Virus record (IMG/VR): IMGVR_UViG_3300027805_000012 | Location: 4,421-68,420 of that record | Length of the DNA stretch: 64,000 nucleotides | DNA from: a virus | Strand: one strand, 5' to 3' | Part shown: piece by piece, positions 44,696 through 63,289 of the stretch | Position numbering within the stretch: position 1 is the stretch's first letter | Layout: each line of letters begins with the position of its first letter | Translations under genes and position numbers: made by a program | Notes under the pieces: generated by a model | What the model was told of the DNA's origin: nothing | The model's input: the letters and a program-made list of their open reading frames with translations, nothing else | Databases searched by the model: none

Positions 44696-45328
44696 ATGAA
44701 CCGTACAAAGTATCCTCGCACCCCTCATCTTCCCTGGAGTCGTGGCGCAACTGACGATGATAAAGTTTTAAAGTCAGTTGCTCACTTTAAGGGCAGACGA
44801 GTAGTTGTATCCAAGAAGATGGATGGAGAATCGACAACCATTTATCATGACGGATACCTACATGCCAGGTCGCTTGACAGCCGTGGTGGCATTGATCGTG
44901 ATTGGGTCACCGCATTTGCAAAAACATGGTGCTTCAATCTGCCAGCAGGCTGGCGAGTGTGCGGAGAAAATTTGTGGGCCCGACACTCTATTGCCTACGA
45001 TGATCTGCCCTCCTACTTCATGGGCTTCAGCATCTGGAATGAGCGCAATGAGTGCCTCAACTGGGAGGACACCAAGGAGTGGTTCGAGATTCTTGGTATC
45101 AAACGTGTGCCAATCCTTGATGATAGCCTATTTGACGTCGACCATCTGCAGCATCTTGCATCTAGGTTAGACCTCGATAAAGACGAGGGATATGTTGTGC
45201 GGCTGGCCGATGACTTCAAGTATGAGGACTTCGGTACATCTGTTGCCAAGTTTGTAAGGGAAGGTCATGTCACAACAGACACCCATTGGCGGCATCAGCA
45301 GCTAATACAAAATGGGTTGAAGAAGTGA
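44696..45328 (+). CDS. RNA ligase family protein (nucleotidyltransferase domain only)
   Basis: 'KYPRTPHLPWS', motif I 'KMDGE', 'CGENL', 'EGYVVR', 'AKFVR'. Confidence 0.88.
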   Translation: MNRTKYPRTPHLPWSRGATDDDKVLKSVAHFKGRRVVVSKKMDGESTTIYHDGYLHARSLDSRGGIDRDWVTAFAKTWCFNLPAGWRVCGENLWARHSIAYDDLPSYFMGFSIWNERNECLNWEDTKEWFEILGIKRVPILDDSLFDVDHLQHLASRLDLDKDEGYVVRLADDFKYEDFGTSVAKFVREGHVTTDTHWRHQQLIQNGLKK

Positions 45329-59476: not shown

Positions 59477-59920
59477 ATGAGAAATTTATCAGATTACGAA
59501 AAGGAGCCAAGATCTGGGTTGATACCGTTCTTGAGATCACCCGATGGGACAATCAGGTACCTGATGATGGTTGCGTCTGATCCCAAGTTTGGTGGCCATC
59601 GCCCCATGATTTCTAAGGGTAAGATAGAGGATGATGAAGGTCCTCTTGAATGCGCCATTAGAGAAGCTGAGGAAGAGCTTGGACTCAAAAAAAGAAACCT
59701 AAGAGGTGAATTCTACGAGGTATTTGAGGGTAGGATTGAGCTTTACTCCTGCGCCTACACACTGTTTGTTTTCGGTGTTGAAATTCAAGACAGATACGAC
59801 TTTGGCAAGTGGTGTGATGAGACTGAGTACACTCTTTGGTTAACTCTAGAAGAATTTAAAGAAAAAGGAAGAAAGGACCACATTAGGTTCGTTGAGGAAT
59901 TGGAAAGGATGGTAACATGA
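59477..59920 (+). CDS. NUDIX hydrolase
   Basis: Nudix box 'KGKIEDDEGPLECAIREAEEELG'. Confidence 0.92.
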   Translation: MRNLSDYEKEPRSGLIPFLRSPDGTIRYLMMVASDPKFGGHRPMISKGKIEDDEGPLECAIREAEEELGLKKRNLRGEFYEVFEGRIELYSCAYTLFVFGVEIQDRYDFGKWCDETEYTLWLTLEEFKEKGRKDHIRFVEELERMVT

Positions 59921-60504
59921 GCCGAATTCTTAAGCTTGATGTTAACGGAACTCCGTCTGAGTGGGTATCCCACCAGGATGCTATCATCTATCATGCCAAG
60001 AACCTGGTTGCATGGCAGCTCGGCGAGGGTGAAGGAGATGTTCTGTTTCGTGGTGGTCAGAACCGTATCACCGGAAAGCAGTCACGCATTGTAACGGCGC
60101 CTATCATCGCCGTTAAGGGCGAAGGGGGTGCCGCCAAGCGACTGAACAAGCCGCCAGGTCTCACAAACAGGGAACTCTTTAGACGTGACCATTACATGTG
60201 CGCCTACTGTGGAGGCATCTTCAAGGAGCTGCAACTCACACGCGACCACGTAATTCCACGATCAAAAGGTGGCCCTGACAAGTGGACCAACGTTGTTACA
60301 GCATGCGAGAAGTGCAACCACAAGAAGGACGATCAGCTTCTTCACGAGTGCGGTATGGAGCTTCTGTACGTGCCGTACGCCCCTAACAGGGCTGAGGCGT
60401 TGATCCTTGAGAACCGTGTCATCCTCGGATGTCAGATGGACTACCTCAAGAGCTTCCTGCCTGACCACAGTCGAGTGTGGAAGCATCTGTCAACTGCACA
60501 GTAA
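59917..60504 (+). CDS. HNH endonuclease (McrA/HNH_5-like)
   Basis: 'LFRRDHYMCAYCG', 'TRDHVIPRSKGG...WTNVVTACEKCNHKK'. Confidence 0.92.
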   Translation: MSRILKLDVNGTPSEWVSHQDAIIYHAKNLVAWQLGEGEGDVLFRGGQNRITGKQSRIVTAPIIAVKGEGGAAKRLNKPPGLTNRELFRRDHYMCAYCGGIFKELQLTRDHVIPRSKGGPDKWTNVVTACEKCNHKKDDQLLHECGMELLYVPYAPNRAEALILENRVILGCQMDYLKSFLPDHSRVWKHLSTAQ

Positions 60505-60542: not shown

Positions 60543-61121
60543 ATGGACGCCAAAGACAGAATTGAACAGGAAGTTTCGAACGCGCTTGCACGTTCTCGCA
60601 CAAAATGGCTGCTTCATGCCGTTGCAGCAACAACAGTTCTGTATCTGATACTCTCTAGTTGGTGGTTGCTAGCTATTCCCATTTATCTCTTTGTTAGCTA
60701 CCAAGCTATGCTGTTCATGACTGTAAATTCTTTGAGCAAAACTCTATCTGCGTCTATGCTACATGAAGTTTCAAAGGCTGAGGCGATGCGTCAATTCTCA
60801 GAGATGAAGGAAAAAATTGATGCTGGAGAAACACAGCCAACTTTGGAATTCTTGGATACTATGAGGAGCGCAGGGCTCGCGGTAGGTTCTGTAGTCGCAG
60901 TTTCAGAACAAATACTTGGCCGCTATCAGGATGCCGATATTCACGAATGGGTTGAAATCAAAGATTCAACATCTGAGCAAGCCCAAAAGTACTGGTTTGA
61001 ACATGTTGCACAGGTTGACAGCAATGGAGCTTTTATACTGCCTGAACTTGAAGACAAAATCTGCGCATGTGTCAATGGTTTCATTTACTCCCGCCCAGTT
61101 GAAAGCATTCAACCTGAATAA
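60543..61121 (+). CDS. Membrane protein
   Basis: Two N-terminal hydrophobic helices. Confidence 0.65.
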   Translation: MDAKDRIEQEVSNALARSRTKWLLHAVAATTVLYLILSSWWLLAIPIYLFVSYQAMLFMTVNSLSKTLSASMLHEVSKAEAMRQFSEMKEKIDAGETQPTLEFLDTMRSAGLAVGSVVAVSEQILGRYQDADIHEWVEIKDSTSEQAQKYWFEHVAQVDSNGAFILPELEDKICACVNGFIYSRPVESIQPE

Positions 61122-61173
61122 ATGTCAAGCAAAAACGGCTTTTTACCATCTTTCGATATAAAATAACATCATA

Positions 61174-61312
61174 CACCAAATTGTTGGTGTAGCGATTGGC
61201 TGGAACCGATCGGTAGCGGTTATCTTAACATGAATGCCGTGCATCCTAGAGGACGAGTATTCTCCTCTAGCGCATGAAAACAGTTGGGAGGTCTGGCAAT
61301 ACCTCATCCGTT
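61174..61312 (+). ncRNA. Run of four hairpins upstream of the Y-like RNA
   Basis: caccaa/ttggtg, cgattgg/ccgatcg, ctagagga/tcctctag, gaggt/acctc. Confidence 0.45.
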
Positions 61313-61342
61313 CCCGTTCCACTCTTTGTTCCCCATTTCAAA

Positions 61343-61647
61343 CCAGTCGAAATTCCGTCAACCTTAACACAGACCGCTTGGAATTGGTTATCATTAAACG
61401 ATGACACCGCAAGCACTTGACTACCTAAGCCAGTTGAAAGACAAGCCGGGCAAGTCAAGGGTACGCCGCCAAAACCTTACGAGCGGACAGTCTAGTCTTC
61501 TATAAAGAAGAACGTTGGAGGATCGAACACCTCATAAGTTACCCGTAACGAACTAAACGGGTGTAGGTAGCGAGTACTAAAGTACGGACTGCTGAATTTT
61601 CCGATTCCGCATTTTTGTCTGTGTTAAGGCTGACACCTAACTTGCTG
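61343..61647 (+). ncRNA. Long Y-RNA-like RNA
   Basis: CAGUCGAA pairs with CUUGCUG leaving a bulged C; 13-bp perfect helix 61362-74/61617-29; 8-bp helix 61380-87/61601-08; ends 31 nt upstream of Ro60. Confidence 0.7.
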
Positions 61648-61678
61648 TCGCCGACAGCCGATTCAAGAGGAGACCGAT

Positions 61679-63289
61679 ATGTCAAACGTCTACGCAAACT
61701 TTGCCAACGCCAACACGACCAAGGCTTCCAAGGTCGTGACTCCGCAGTCTCAGGCCATCCCGGGCCGTGAGGCCGACATGAAGCGCAACAATGCCGGCGG
61801 CGTGACCTTCACGCTCGACCAGTGGGGCGTCCTGGACCGCTTCCTGATGATCGGTTCGGAGGGCGGCAACTACTACGTCGGCGAGCGTGACATCACCAAG
61901 CAGAGCTTCGACACCGTCAAGAAGTGCCTGAAGGAAGACGGTCTCCGTGCGGTCAACCGTGCCCTCGAGTACTCGCTTGCTGGTCGCGCCCCGAAGAACG
62001 ATCCGGCTGTCGTCGCCATCGCTCTCGCGGCAGTGTACGGCGACGACGTCACCAAGGCGGCAGCCTACGAGGCACTACCAAAGATCGCCCGCACCGGTAC
62101 ATGGCTCTTCCTGTTCGTCTCGATCCTCGACGCCCTCGGTAAGTGGAACGCGGCAGCGAAGCGCGGTGTTGCCAAGTGGTATACCAACAAGGACATGGAT
62201 CGCCTGGCAGTTCAGCTCCTGAAGTACCAGTCACGCAACGGCTGGGCACACCGTGACGTGCTCCGTCTGGCACACGTCAAGCCGACGAACGAGGTTCAGT
62301 CAAACCTGTTCCGTTACGCCGTGGGCAAGGACCTGGCGCTCGGTGCAGCCGTACCTCAGCTGCTGATCGACTTCGAGATGCTGAAGCGCACCGACTCCAA
62401 GAAGGACGTGCTACGCATTGTCGAGAGCAACGACAACGTCACCTGGGAAATGGTGCCGACTCAGTGGCTCAAGGACAAGGACATCATGCTCGCCCTCGTG
62501 CGCAACATGGGTCTGACTGCCGTGATCCGCAAGCTTGGTGTTCTGACCCAGAACGGCGTCATCGCCCCGCTATCGGAAGGCGCGAAGCTGGTGATTAGCA
62601 AGCTGAACGACGCCGAGTCGCTCAAGAAGCAGCGCGTTCACCCGATCACGATCCTGCAGGCCATGAAGCAGTACTCGGCTGGTCGTGGCCAGAAGGGTTC
62701 AGCAACGTGGAAGCCGGAGCAGCGAGTCGTCGACGCTCTCGACAGCGCGTTCTACGCGGCGTTCGAGTACGGCGAGAAGTCGGATGAGTCGTACCTGCTG
62801 GGTGTCGACTGCTCTGGTTCGATGTTCGCCGCGCAGGTCAACGGTTCTCCGAACCTGACGGCTGCGGAAGTCGCTGGTGTGATGGCCCTCGCGGTCGTCA
62901 AGAACCAGCCGAACTACTGGATCGGTGGCTTCAACACTAAGATGAGCGAGCTCAAGATCACGCCGAACATGCGTCTCGACAAGGTTCTGGAGGTGATGAA
63001 CCGCTTCAACTGGGGCGGCACCGACTGCGCGCAAGTTTACCTCCATGCTTCAGCGATGGGCATGAAGGTTGATCGCTTTGTCAGCATCACCGATTCAGAA
63101 ACGTGGGCAGGCGGCGTCCAGCCGGTGCAGGCGTTGCGAGACTACCGAAAGAAGTTCAATCCAGGAGCCAAGGGTGTTGTCATTGGGACGAGCGTCAGCG
63201 AATTCACAATCGCAGATCCCAAGGATGCGGGAATGTTGGACGTGGCGGGGTTCGATTCAGCTGCGCCGCAAATCATCGCTAACTTCTGA
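61679..63289 (+). CDS. rsr: Ro60/TROVE-domain RNA-binding protein
   Basis: 'NNAGG', 'LDRFL.IGS..G.YY', 'KYQSRNGWAHRDVLRLAH', 'IRKLG', 'VHP', vWA 'VDCSGSM', 'GGTDC', 'ITDSET', 'AGFDS'. Confidence 0.96.
   Translation: MSNVYANFANANTTKASKVVTPQSQAIPGREADMKRNNAGGVTFTLDQWGVLDRFLMIGSEGGNYYVGERDITKQSFDTVKKCLKEDGLRAVNRALEYSLAGRAPKNDPAVVAIALAAVYGDDVTKAAAYEALPKIARTGTWLFLFVSILDALGKWNAAAKRGVAKWYTNKDMDRLAVQLLKYQSRNGWAHRDVLRLAHVKPTNEVQSNLFRYAVGKDLALGAAVPQLLIDFEMLKRTDSKKDVLRIVESNDNVTWEMVPTQWLKDKDIMLALVRNMGLTAVIRKLGVLTQNGVIAPLSEGAKLVISKLNDAESLKKQRVHPITILQAMKQYSAGRGQKGSATWKPEQRVVDALDSAFYAAFEYGEKSDESYLLGVDCSGSMFAAQVNGSPNLTAAEVAGVMALAVVKNQPNYWIGGFNTKMSELKITPNMRLDKVLEVMNRFNWGGTDCAQVYLHASAMGMKVDRFVSITDSETWAGGVQPVQALRDYRKKFNPGAKGVVIGTSVSEFTIADPKDAGMLDVAGFDSAAPQIIANF

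What the first reader, a model, noticed from the sequence alone, without database searches (positions are those of the whole stretch)
61343..61647. Giant (~305 nt) Y-RNA-like RNA directly upstream of phage Ro60
The 5' CAGUCGAA (61344-51) pairs with 3' CUUGCUG (61641-47) as C-G, A-U, G-C, U.G, bulged C, G.U, A-U. This is the bulged-C helix geometry Ro60 binds, and it contains the GNCGAA core of bacterial Y RNAs. The helix continues through gtca/tgac, a perfect 13-bp stem and ggaattgg/ccgattcc, about 33 bp in all. It encloses a ~210-nt domain with many arms (tcat/atga, cttgact/agtcaag, ctaccta/taggtag, ccgc/gcgg, tcttc/gaaga, gagg-atcgaaca-cctc T-loop-like, acccgt/acgggt, gtac/gtac). Known Y RNAs are roughly 85-150 nt and tether Ro60 to an effector such as PNPase. 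A cargo domain twice that size suggests a new class of Ro60 RNP scaffold or a catalytic/decoy RNA used by the phage.
Basis: partly seen in the sequence, partly recalled or inferred. Interest (0 to 1): 0.9.

Follow-up and report, generated by a model that had tools for sequence, protein, structure and literature searches.

The report
Large two-module Y-like RNA before phage Ro60

Summary
The RNA is real. The long closing stem and most inner arms are conserved, with heavy compensatory change, in at least 18 phage loci. In every one it lies directly upstream of Ro60 on the same strand. No Rfam family matches it. Contigs from two freshwater metatranscriptomes cover it.

Its 5' strand is the 3' strand of a helix that closes a second, smaller module upstream (61193-61349). 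Its 3' strand belongs to a small conserved hairpin just before the ribosome-binding site.

The flagged unit is module 2 (61357-61634) of a roughly 500-nt RNA. Both modules and the small hairpin carry the same invariant motif: a helix ending in a C-G pair, then an unpaired C and a G, opposite a U-rich bulge. This resembles the Ro60 site of Y RNAs. The same core (CCG, 9-10 nt, GGUUAYC) occurs in the Yrl RNAs of mycobacteriophage Ava3. It also occurs in 60-150-nt RNAs inside tRNA arrays of Ro60-encoding phages, including this one (50660-50744).

Best reading: a divergent, unusually large Y-like partner RNA of phage Ro60. Binding is inferred, not shown. Earlier agents of this scan noted phage Ro60 with Y-like RNA arrays on other DNA, but not this RNA family.

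The parts
61157..61164 (+). -10-like promoter box TATAAAAT. The transcription start is inferred at about 61170.
   Evidence: The box is conserved at the same position in most homologous loci (alignments). Metatranscriptome contigs begin at 61183 and 61188, with no coverage over 60655-61178. No sigma-70 -35 box was found.
61173..61190 (+). P1, a 5'-terminal hairpin (ACACCAA / UUGGUGU)
   Evidence: The stem sequence differs between homologues but stays paired: GCAUUGA/UCAAUGC, GCACUG/CAGUGC, GCAUCGA/UCGAUGC.
61193..61349 (+). Module 1, a 157-nt Y-like stem-bulge-stem unit. Elements: P2 61193-99 / 61343-49; P3 61202-06 / 61328-32; unpaired C61207; GA 61208-09 paired with UC 61323-24, leaving a UUU bulge at 61325-27; upper stem 61212-19 / 61314-20; hairpin 61286-92 / 61301-09.
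   Evidence: RNAalifold consensus from 9 sequences. Covariance model R1 recovers L006, L007 and L071 at the predicted coordinates. 95.8% of cells pair, 19 of 29 pairs are compensatory, 0 of 500 shuffles reach this, and slid controls give 34-53%.
61205..61224 (+). Core 5' motif of module 1: ACCGAUCGGUAGCGGUUAUC
   Evidence: The pattern ACCGNTYGGNNNNGGTTATC matches only at 61205 and 61373 in 64 kb, with 0 matches expected. Nearly every homologue carries two copies.
61357..61634 (+). Module 2, 278 nt: the structurally supported part of the flagged unit. Lower stem 61357-74 / 61617-34; unpaired C61375; GC 61376-77 paired with GC 61609-10, opposite the bulge AUUUUU 61611-16; upper stem 61380-87 / 61601-08.
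   Evidence: In helix 1, 16 of 17 pairs change on both sides. The C-G pair next to the unpaired C is invariant (CG in 20 of 20).
61388..61600 (+). Cargo domain of module 2 (213 nt). Arms: A 61413-64 (containing the near-invariant segment GCAAGUUGAAAGACAAGCC), B 61466-86, C 61494-61514, D 61518-33 (loop AUCGAACA, T-loop-like), E 61540-63, F 61566-93.
   Evidence: Consensus structure with window coordinates. Per-helix covariation for helices 3-10. RNAalifold on 11 sequences.
61642..61661 (+). Site 3, a minimal hairpin copy of the motif: UU-GCUGUC-GCC-GACAGC-[C61659]-GA. It ends 6 nt before the Shine-Dalgarno sequence.
   Evidence: The hairpin is present in 14 of 14 loci that keep this spacer. 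GCU/AGC is invariant and the inner pairs covary. It is missing only in L004, where a GIY-YIG endonuclease gene is inserted there.
61667..61672 (+). Shine-Dalgarno sequence GAGGAG of the Ro60 gene
   Evidence: Read directly from the sequence. An AGGAG-like box is aligned in the homologues.
61679..63289 (+). Ro60 (Rsr) gene, 536 aa, with TROVE and vWA domains
   Evidence: Pfam PF05731 at 5.7e-25 and PF25045 at 6.1e-48. D. radiodurans Rsr 2nvo at E 1.2e-102, human and Xenopus Ro60 at 1e-97 and 1e-93.
50660..50744 (+). An 85-nt small Y-like RNA with the same core, inside the tRNA array. Lower stem AUGACAAC/GUUGUCAU, unpaired C50668, upper stem GGAAUGG/CCGUUCC, UUAUC, and a hairpin showing the loop CUUUCAC.
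   Evidence: Motif hit. Fold z = -3.99. The L077 homologue has a compensatory change in the lower stem and a different loop, CUCAUAC. The RNA lies between tRNA-Ile and tRNA-Gln.

Best explanation
The flagged stretch is module 2 of a roughly 500-nt non-coding RNA (about 61170-61665). It is transcribed from a phage promoter together with the Ro60 gene that follows it.

The RNA holds two tandem paralogous stem-bulge-stem modules and a third minimal hairpin. Each presents the same invariant docking motif: a helix ending in C-G, then an unpaired C and a G on the 5' strand, opposite a U-rich bulge followed by G on the 3' strand.

Most likely the phage Ro60 ring docks on this motif, as Ro60 does on the bulged-C helix of Y RNAs. 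The 213-nt multi-arm cargo of module 2 would then act as the effector end, either tethering a host factor such as a 3'-5' exoribonuclease or gating access to Ro60. The copy next to the ribosome-binding site could let Ro60 limit its own translation or mark a processing site.

Shown: structure, conservation, exclusive linkage to Ro60, presence in RNA libraries, and sharing of the core with accepted phage Yrl RNAs.
Inferred: Ro60 binding, what the cargo does, and autoregulation.
For: 1. Linkage.
- Searches that started from the RNA pattern, in IMG/VR and in 241 million metagenome records, returned true homologues only next to Ro60 and on the same strand. The other pattern hits were chance matches.
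- Model R2 finds the unit upstream of Ro60 in 18 loci, with Ro60 identities of about 57-93% to the window's protein. These include complete 336-358-kb jumbo phages.
- No member was found in representative genomes of 185,579 bacterial and archaeal species.

2. Structure.
- Strong covariation in both modules and in the closing stem.
- The C-G pair and the unpaired C stay invariant while the flanking helix changes sequence.

3. Resemblance to Y RNAs.
- The vertebrate Ro60 site is a 7-bp helix, a single bulged C and a 3-nt bulge on the opposite strand (PMC4726728). The consensus for module 1 gives P3, bulged C61207 and a UUU bulge at 61325-27.
- The core CCG-N9-10-GGUUAYC occurs three times upstream of mycobacteriophage Ava3 Ro60, and one of those units contains the Rfam YrlA hit.
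- Chen et al. 2014 describe a GNCGAA motif and a conserved YUAY in YrlA RNAs.

4. Co-occurrence across genomes.
- Small RNAs with the same core sit in tRNA arrays of Ro60 phages.
- Of the IMG/VR pattern matches, 32 of 129 pass a structure test, against 1.35 +/- 1.05 expected.
- Records carrying such an RNA encode TROVE in 9 of 25 cases, and in 5 of 5 that are at least 90% complete. Records whose match fails the structure test do so in 0 of 12, and in 0 of 5 complete ones.

5. Expression. Contigs from two freshwater metatranscriptome studies start at 61183 and 61188. Neither has coverage over 60655-61178. Depth over the RNA is above that over the coding sequence: 32 against 8, and 9.8 against 2.4-6.6.

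6. Action in trans is plausible. In L004 a GIY-YIG endonuclease gene separates the RNA from Ro60 by about 750 nt, yet the RNA remains intact and conserved.

7. Precedent. Thermus phage phiLo has two Yrl RNAs upstream of its Ro60, and both bind it (PMC12135203). M. smegmatis YrlA and YrlB are processed from one precursor upstream of rsr.

8. The region is not coding: no open frame is conserved across the homologues.
Against: - No binding data exist, and none can be obtained with these tools.
- The strict bacterial motif GNCGAAN0-1G is not met: the motif reads ACCGAU in module 1 and ACCGCU in module 2.
- Rfam YrlA and all other families give no hit at E <= 10. There is no tRNA-like domain.
- Model R1 of module 1 does not detect module 2 or the Ava3 units, so the similarity between them is at motif level only.
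- No terminator separates the RNA from Ro60, so it may act only in cis.
- Logan contigs cannot show strand, transcript ends or true abundance.
- The co-occurrence of small core-bearing RNAs with TROVE could reflect shared ancestry of one jumbo-phage clade rather than function.
Confidence: 0.65

Rival explanations
1. It is purely a cis-acting 5' leader of the Ro60 mRNA, serving as a sensor or an autoregulatory platform. The structure would control Ro60 translation or mRNA stability and would have no role as a separate RNA.
For: - No terminator lies between the RNA and the start codon.
- Metatranscriptome contigs run from the RNA into the coding sequence.
- The conserved site-3 hairpin ends 6 nt before the Shine-Dalgarno sequence in 14 of 14 loci.
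Against: - About 500 nt with some 90 conserved base pairs and a 213-nt cargo is far more than known translational operators need.
- No helix sequesters the Shine-Dalgarno sequence or the start codon.
- In L004 an endonuclease gene is inserted between the RNA and Ro60 and removes site 3, yet both modules stay conserved.
- The same core occurs in free-standing small RNAs in tRNA arrays, far from Ro60.
- Contig depth over the RNA exceeds that over the coding sequence.
- This reading is not exclusive of the best explanation: the M. smegmatis Y RNAs are also cut from the rsr leader.
Confidence: 0.15
2. It is a structured RNA whose core is recognised by something other than Ro60, for example a tRNA-processing or RNA-repair factor. 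Its position next to Ro60 would reflect a shared pathway or shared ancestry rather than direct binding.
For: - Core-bearing small RNAs are interleaved with tRNAs and may be processed with them.
- One tRNA-Lys carries the core as an extra arm.
- An RNA ligase gene lies upstream of the array.
- The strict GNCGAA motif is not met.
Against: - The RNA is immediately upstream of Ro60, on the same strand, in all 18 loci.
- The core is shared with the Ava3 Yrl units.
- The local geometry (C-G pair, bulged C, G.U, U-rich opposite bulge) matches the published Ro60 site.
- All 5 complete genomes carrying the small RNAs encode TROVE, against 0 of 5 controls.
Confidence: 0.15
3. It is a known unrelated element such as an intron, a ribozyme or a transposon end, or else a chance fold.
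For: The long inverted repeat could in principle be the terminal repeat of a mobile element. HNH and GIY-YIG endonuclease genes lie nearby.
Against: - No Rfam family matches at E <= 10 in the window or in four homologues.
- The stem arms change by compensatory substitution rather than being conserved in sequence.
- There is a single copy per genome, at a fixed position.
- The endonuclease genes vary in presence and position.
Confidence: 0.02

Closest known systems
Yrl1 and Yrl2 of Thermus phage phiLo (PMC12135203)
   Same: Two Y-like RNAs lie in tandem directly upstream of a phage Ro60 gene, each with a stem-bulge-stem layout and a CGA-containing motif. They were shown to bind the phage Ro60 and host PNPase.
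   Different: - The phiLo Ro60 is only distantly related to this one: E 8e-4, against 1e-102 for Deinococcus Rsr.
- The phiLo RNAs are drawn with one or two hairpins each. Module 2 here has a 213-nt cargo of about six arms.
- A third minimal site lies at the ribosome-binding site here.
- I did not compare the sequences, because the phiLo RNAs were not available to the tools.
YrlA and YrlB of mycobacteria and mycobacteriophages (Rfam RF02553; Chen et al. 2014, PMC4201824)
   Same: - Both are encoded upstream of Ro60 on the same strand, in tandem. In M. smegmatis they come from one precursor.
- Both share the core: stem, then NCCGA, 9-10 nt, GGUUAYC, and a UGU-containing 3' strand. This is seen in three Ava3 units.
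- The conserved YUAY is present in both.
   Different: - There is no tRNA-like domain and no RF02553 match at E <= 10, while the control phage scores 36 bits.
- The first motif base is A, not G.
- The lower stem is 17-27 bp long.
- The unit is 278 nt, against 114 positions in the RF02553 model.
Vertebrate Y RNAs (Ro60 site in the lower stem)
   Same: The 5' and 3' parts form a lower and an upper stem. The local motif is the same: a C-G pair, a single bulged C, then G and A, opposite a short U-containing bulge (compared).
   Different: Vertebrate Y RNAs are about 100 +/- 20 nt and are separate Pol III genes with a La-binding U tail. Here the RNA is a multi-module bacterial-type transcript fused to the Ro60 mRNA, and the 5'-strand sequence GGUCCGA is replaced by (R)ACCGA.
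D. radiodurans Yrn1 in the Ro60-Y RNA-PNPase (RYPER) machine
   Same: It offers a working model in which the RNA is modular. One end docks Ro60 and the other tethers an exoribonuclease or gates the Ro60 cavity. The window's Ro60 is closest to Deinococcus Rsr among solved structures.
   Different: No sequence or model similarity was detected. No PNPase gene or PNPase-binding element was identified here, so the effector is unknown.

Membership tests
Y RNA (functional class: non-coding RNA bound by Ro60) | Physically bound by Ro60 | not testable with these tools
   No RNA-protein binding tool is available. This needs EMSA or immunoprecipitation.
Y RNA (functional class: non-coding RNA bound by Ro60) | Encoded close to the Ro60 gene on the same strand (Chen et al. 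2014: within 4 kb) | tested here: met
   The RNA is directly upstream and on the same strand in all 18 loci found with model R2, and in all true hits from the searches that started from the RNA pattern.
Y RNA (functional class: non-coding RNA bound by Ro60) | A long stem formed by the 5' and 3' parts of the unit, with an effector module at the other end | tested here: met
   Module 1: P2 and P3. Module 2: a 17-bp lower stem with 16 covarying pairs, an upper stem and a 213-nt cargo.
Y RNA (functional class: non-coding RNA bound by Ro60) | A conserved Ro60-site motif on the 5' strand with a bulged C (GGUCCGA in animals, GNCGAAN0-1G in bacteria) | tested here: inconclusive
An invariant AC[C]G motif with an unpaired C and an opposite U-rich bulge occurs at three sites. 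Strict GNCGAA is not met: the motif reads ACCGAU or ACCGCU.
YrlA (Rfam RF02553) | Match to the RF02553 covariance model | tested here: not met
   There is no hit at E <= 10 in 61050-61750 or in four homologues. A search of the whole record gave only weak sub-threshold hits within the tRNA array. In the control, Ava3 scores 36 bits at E 3.8e-5.
YrlA (Rfam RF02553) | A tRNA-like domain (T-arm, D-arm and an acceptor-like stem) | tested here: not met
   The RNA gives no tRNA or YrlA model hit. Only a 4-bp hairpin with loop AUCGAACA (61518-33) resembles a T-loop, and its second loop base varies between U and C.
Cis-regulatory leader or riboswitch | An expression platform: a terminator, or a helix that sequesters the ribosome-binding site | tested here: not met
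   No terminator lies on the + strand. The Shine-Dalgarno sequence 61667-72 is unpaired in the consensus, and the site-3 hairpin ends at 61661.
Group I or II intron, or another described large RNA (GOLLD, ROOL, OLE, HEARO and the like) | Match to the family's Rfam model | tested here: not met
   Rfam 15 (4227 families) gives nothing at the gathering threshold or at E <= 10.

The most novel reading that the evidence does not exclude
The RNA is a polyvalent Ro60 hub. One transcript would carry three docking sites and so assemble two or three Ro60 rings around a 213-nt cargo domain of a new kind.

It would be the flagship of a phage-wide set of Y-like RNAs that keep one docking core and swap cargo. 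The cargo ranges from nothing (60-nt minis), through displayed tRNA anticodon loops and tRNA-like domains, to this multi-arm domain. The phage would use the set to redirect host RNA decay or to blunt tRNA-targeting defences.
Probability: 0.2. Interest if true: 0.8.

Novelty: new variant of a known kind. Interest (0 to 1): 0.62.

Why it matters
Ro60 with a Y RNA is a conserved RNA quality-control particle. It is poorly understood outside a few model species, and in most Ro60-encoding phages the partner RNAs are not annotated.

This family gives a clean comparative data set:
- an invariant docking motif, reused in three contexts within one transcript and again in small RNAs inside tRNA arrays;
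- cargo domains that range from none to 213 nt.

That makes two questions directly testable. What does Ro60 recognise in bacterial-type Y RNAs? What does the cargo end recruit? It also supplies two covariance models for a family absent from Rfam, and links phage tRNA arrays, RNA repair genes and Ro60 in large freshwater phages.

Tried and rejected
- Rfam at the gathering threshold and at E <= 10, on the window and on four homologues: nothing relevant.
- blastn of the region against 50,697 phage records: no match.
- The pattern for the T-loop-like hairpin found only close relatives.
- The 16-mer AGTTGARAGACAAGCC gave mostly chance hits.
- The scan of 185,579 species genomes gave 17 matches, all chance.
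- RNAalifold on 14 MAFFT-aligned module-1 sequences predicted no pairs at all, because distant members were misaligned. This was solved with covariance models.
- RNAalifold on 11 module-2 sequences missed the long stem for the same reason. This was solved by duplex energies and by model R2.
- Model R1 does not hit module 2 or the Ava3 units. Paralogy of the two modules therefore rests on the shared 20-nt core and the matching layout only.
- The YrlA model run on the whole record gave only weak sub-threshold hits within the tRNA array.
- The MAFFT alignment of 29 small RNAs did not register the lower stem. I used a permutation test instead.
- My first automatic search for 3' partners mis-assigned several site-2 strands. 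I corrected these from the duplex folds.
- The Sim et al. 2020 review is not held.
- Coding potential was rejected: open frames differ in place and length between homologues.
- I considered a K-turn reading of the internal loop and dropped it, because there are no tandem G.A pairs (my own reading of the sequence).
- Recent horizontal acquisition of Ro60 was rejected. Its G+C excess over its flanks recurs in nearly all homologous loci.

Full report
**Setting.** The window is most of a 69.8-kb IMG/VR virus fragment, estimated 19% complete. The ORF at 61679-63289 is a canonical Ro60. It has TROVE and Ro60-vWA domains. It matches Deinococcus Rsr at E 1e-102 and human and Xenopus Ro60 at about 1e-95. 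The 557-nt spacer before it (61122-61678) has no conserved open frame. It also has no Rfam match, even at E <= 10.

- The 305-nt stretch folds better than all 100 shuffles (z = -3.48).
- Using the Ro60 protein and RNA-derived patterns, I collected homologous upstream regions from IMG/VR and metagenomes.
- Every true RNA homologue lies directly upstream of a Ro60 gene on the same strand. The remaining pattern hits were chance matches without Ro60.
- The long closing stem has quite different sequences in different phages but always pairs. Cognate 5' and 3' strands give a mean of -27.4 kcal/mol. Non-cognate combinations give -10.9 +/- 4.2, and the cognate pair is the best or joint-best in every row and column; the only tie is with L010, whose stem is identical to the window's.
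- A covariance model built from only six close sequences (R2) then found full-length matches upstream of Ro60 in 18 loci. These include complete 336-358-kb jumbo phage genomes.
- On that alignment 91.9% of cells pair and 52 of 62 pairs change on both sides. The covariation score is 0.447 against 0.129 in shuffles (0 of 500 reach it). Slid controls give 32-41%.
- In the lower stem 16 of 17 pairs covary. The one invariant pair is the C-G next to an unpaired C.
- Caveat: this alignment is fitted to the model's structure, and it includes four weak hits.

**What is wrong in the observation.** It does not survive comparison.
- CCAGUCG (61343-49) is the 3' strand of a helix, P2, whose partner is CGAUUGG (61193-99), 150 nt upstream. 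All six modelled pairs covary. Examples are GAUUGG/CCAGUC in the window, GAACGG/CCGUUC in L070 and AUAGAUUUA/UAAAUCUAU in L057.
- GCUG (61644-47) is part of a small hairpin, 61644-49 / 61653-58, present in 14 of 14 loci.
- The proposed ctaccta/taggtag pairing is contradicted by L071, which compensates the local arm pairing instead.

**Anatomy.** The whole spacer is one conserved structured RNA.
- A conserved -10-like box TATAAAAT lies at 61157-64, followed by a covarying 5' hairpin at 61173-90.
- Module 1 spans 61193-61349. It consists of P2, P3 (GGAAC/GUUCC, 61202-06 / 61328-32), unpaired C61207, an upper stem and a hairpin. Model R1, built from nine sequences, recovered three more distant members at exactly the predicted coordinates. 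It gives 95.8% paired cells, 19 of 29 compensatory pairs, and 0 of 500 shuffles as good.
- Module 2 spans 61357-61634. It has a lower stem of 4 + 13 bp, unpaired C61375, the upper stem GGAAUUGG/CCGAUUCC, and a 213-nt cargo of about six arms.
- Site 3 (61642-61661) is a hairpin that ends 6 nt before the Shine-Dalgarno sequence.
- The many G.U pairs would be A.C mismatches on the other strand. Together with the fixed orientation relative to Ro60, this points to the + strand as the functional one.

**The repeated motif.**
- Modules 1 and 2 share a 20-nt core, ACCGNUYGGNNNNGGUUAUC. It occurs exactly twice in the 64-kb window, with 0 matches expected, and twice in nearly every homologue.
- All three sites share one geometry: a helix ending in C-G, then an unpaired C and a G, opposite a U-rich stretch followed by G.
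- For module 1 the RNAalifold consensus gives bulged C61207 with a UUU bulge on the opposite strand. [quoted passage not shown]
- L008 has only one module, of the module-2 type, plus site 3.

**Link to accepted Y RNAs.**
- As a positive control, Rfam YrlA detects the known Y RNA upstream of mycobacteriophage Ava3 Ro60.
- Reading that region shows three tandem units. Each has a long stem followed by GCCGA, about 10 nt, and CGGUUAYC, with a UGU-containing 3' strand.
- The regex CCG-N9-10-GGTTAYC hits exactly these three places in Ava3 and the two modules here.
- Chen et al. 2014 describe a 5' GNCGAA motif and a conserved YUAY in YrlA RNAs.
- The similarity is therefore real but at motif level. 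The covariance models do not cross-detect, and the tRNA-like domain that defines YrlA is absent.

**The same core elsewhere.**
- The regex also hit the window's tRNA array. At 50660-50744 lies an 85-nt RNA with the same lower stem, unpaired C, upper stem and UUAUC, and a hairpin showing the loop CUUUCAC. Its L077 homologue has a compensatory stem change and the loop CUCAUAC.
- At 50924-51053 a tRNA-Lys carries the core as an inserted arm.
- Other Ro60 phage records have 60-150-nt versions inside their tRNA arrays, one of them with a T-arm.
- An IMG/VR scan for small versions gave at least 119 stretches. Of 129 matches, 32 pass a structure test, against 1.35 +/- 1.05 expected when the 5' and 3' halves are permuted.
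- Records with a passing RNA encode TROVE in 9 of 25 cases, and in 5 of 5 that are at least 90% complete. Records whose match fails the test do so in 0 of 12 cases, and in 0 of 5 complete ones.
- Shared ancestry of one jumbo-phage clade may inflate this association.

**Expression.** Two freshwater metatranscriptome studies hold the sequence at 100% identity. Their contigs begin at 61183 and 61188, just after the predicted start, and neither has coverage over 60655-61178. Depth over the RNA exceeds depth over the Ro60 coding sequence. Contigs cannot prove strand, transcript ends or abundance, so this is suggestive only.

**Cis or trans?** There is no terminator before Ro60, and contigs run into the coding sequence, so the RNA is probably co-transcribed with it. 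In L004, however, a GIY-YIG homing endonuclease gene sits between module 2 and Ro60 and replaces site 3, while both modules remain intact. The RNA is also better conserved than the neighbouring 192-aa protein, which is 24-42% identical between loci. This favours an RNA with its own function, possibly cut from the leader as in M. smegmatis.

**Mechanism (inferred).** Ro60 would dock on the C-bulge core of each module. The cargo of module 2 would tether or gate an effector, as Deinococcus Yrn1 and the phiLo Yrl RNAs do with PNPase. Site 3 could allow autoregulation or processing. The context fits RNA repair and tRNA biology: the window also holds an RNA ligase gene and a 17-tRNA array.

**Novelty.** Tandem Y-like RNAs upstream of phage Ro60 are known (PMC4201824, PMC12135203). 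Earlier agents of this scan reported phage Ro60 with arrays of Y-like RNAs on other DNA. None of their records resembles this RNA. What is new:
- a family absent from Rfam;
- a 278-nt module with a conserved 213-nt cargo;
- the bipartite layout with a third site at the ribosome-binding site;
- one docking core shared with small RNAs in tRNA arrays.

I class it as a new variant of a known kind.

Noticed in passing
window 50660-50744: An 85-nt small RNA lies between tRNA-Ile and tRNA-Gln. It has the same docking core as the two modules upstream of Ro60, and a hairpin whose 7-nt loop CUUUCAC equals a tRNA-Glu anticodon loop. The L077 homologue shows CUCAUAC instead, so the displayed loop is swapped between phages.
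   Followed up: partly
window 50924-51053; L077 3930-4065: A tRNA-Lys(CUU) carries an extra arm between the D and anticodon arms. The arm contains the same core in permuted order: U-rich stretch, hairpin, C-C-G, then GAAUGGUUAUC. The L077 copy has a perfect 7-bp hairpin there, while the window copy looks partly degenerate.
   Followed up: partly
L107 (G005:C1, around 64286), L109 and L110: Other Ro60 phage records hold the core in 60-nt 'mini' RNAs with no cargo, which lie in tRNA arrays. They also hold a 148-nt unit containing a T-arm, GGGUUCGAUUCCC, which would be a YrlA-like tRNA mimic on the same scaffold; no tRNA gene was detected in its 3-kb locus.
   Followed up: partly
L065 2590-2950 (mycobacteriophage Ava3): Three tandem Yrl-like units lie upstream of the annotated Ro-like gene. 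Rfam YrlA recognises only the tRNA-like centre of the middle unit, below its gathering score, and none of the three is annotated in the record.
   Followed up: partly
L004 2301-3044; window 59917-60504; L008 2052-2630: Homing-endonuclease genes cluster around this locus. A GIY-YIG/NUMOD3 gene is inserted between the RNA and Ro60 in L004. HNH genes lie just upstream in the window and in L008.
   Followed up: partly
window 61679-63289 and homologous loci: The Ro60 ORF is 5-16 points richer in G+C than its upstream flank in every phage examined (60% against 44% here), and richer than the downstream flank in all but L070, where the two are about equal. The RNA is poorer in G+C than the flanks, except in the window itself. 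This is a near-constant property, not a sign of recent transfer.
   Followed up: partly
window 60543-61121: A 192-aa protein with hydrophobic N-terminal segments and no Pfam or PHROG family lies just upstream of the RNA in most homologous loci, at 24-42% identity.
   Followed up: partly
window 44696-45328: An RNA ligase gene (PF09414, E 1.7e-26) lies about 4 kb upstream of the tRNA array. This fits an RNA-repair setting for Ro60.
   Followed up: no
window 61157-61164 and aligned positions in homologues: The only conserved promoter element is a TATAAAAT/TATAAATA-like box with no -35 box. By my own recollection this resembles T4-type late promoters; I did not test it.
   Followed up: no
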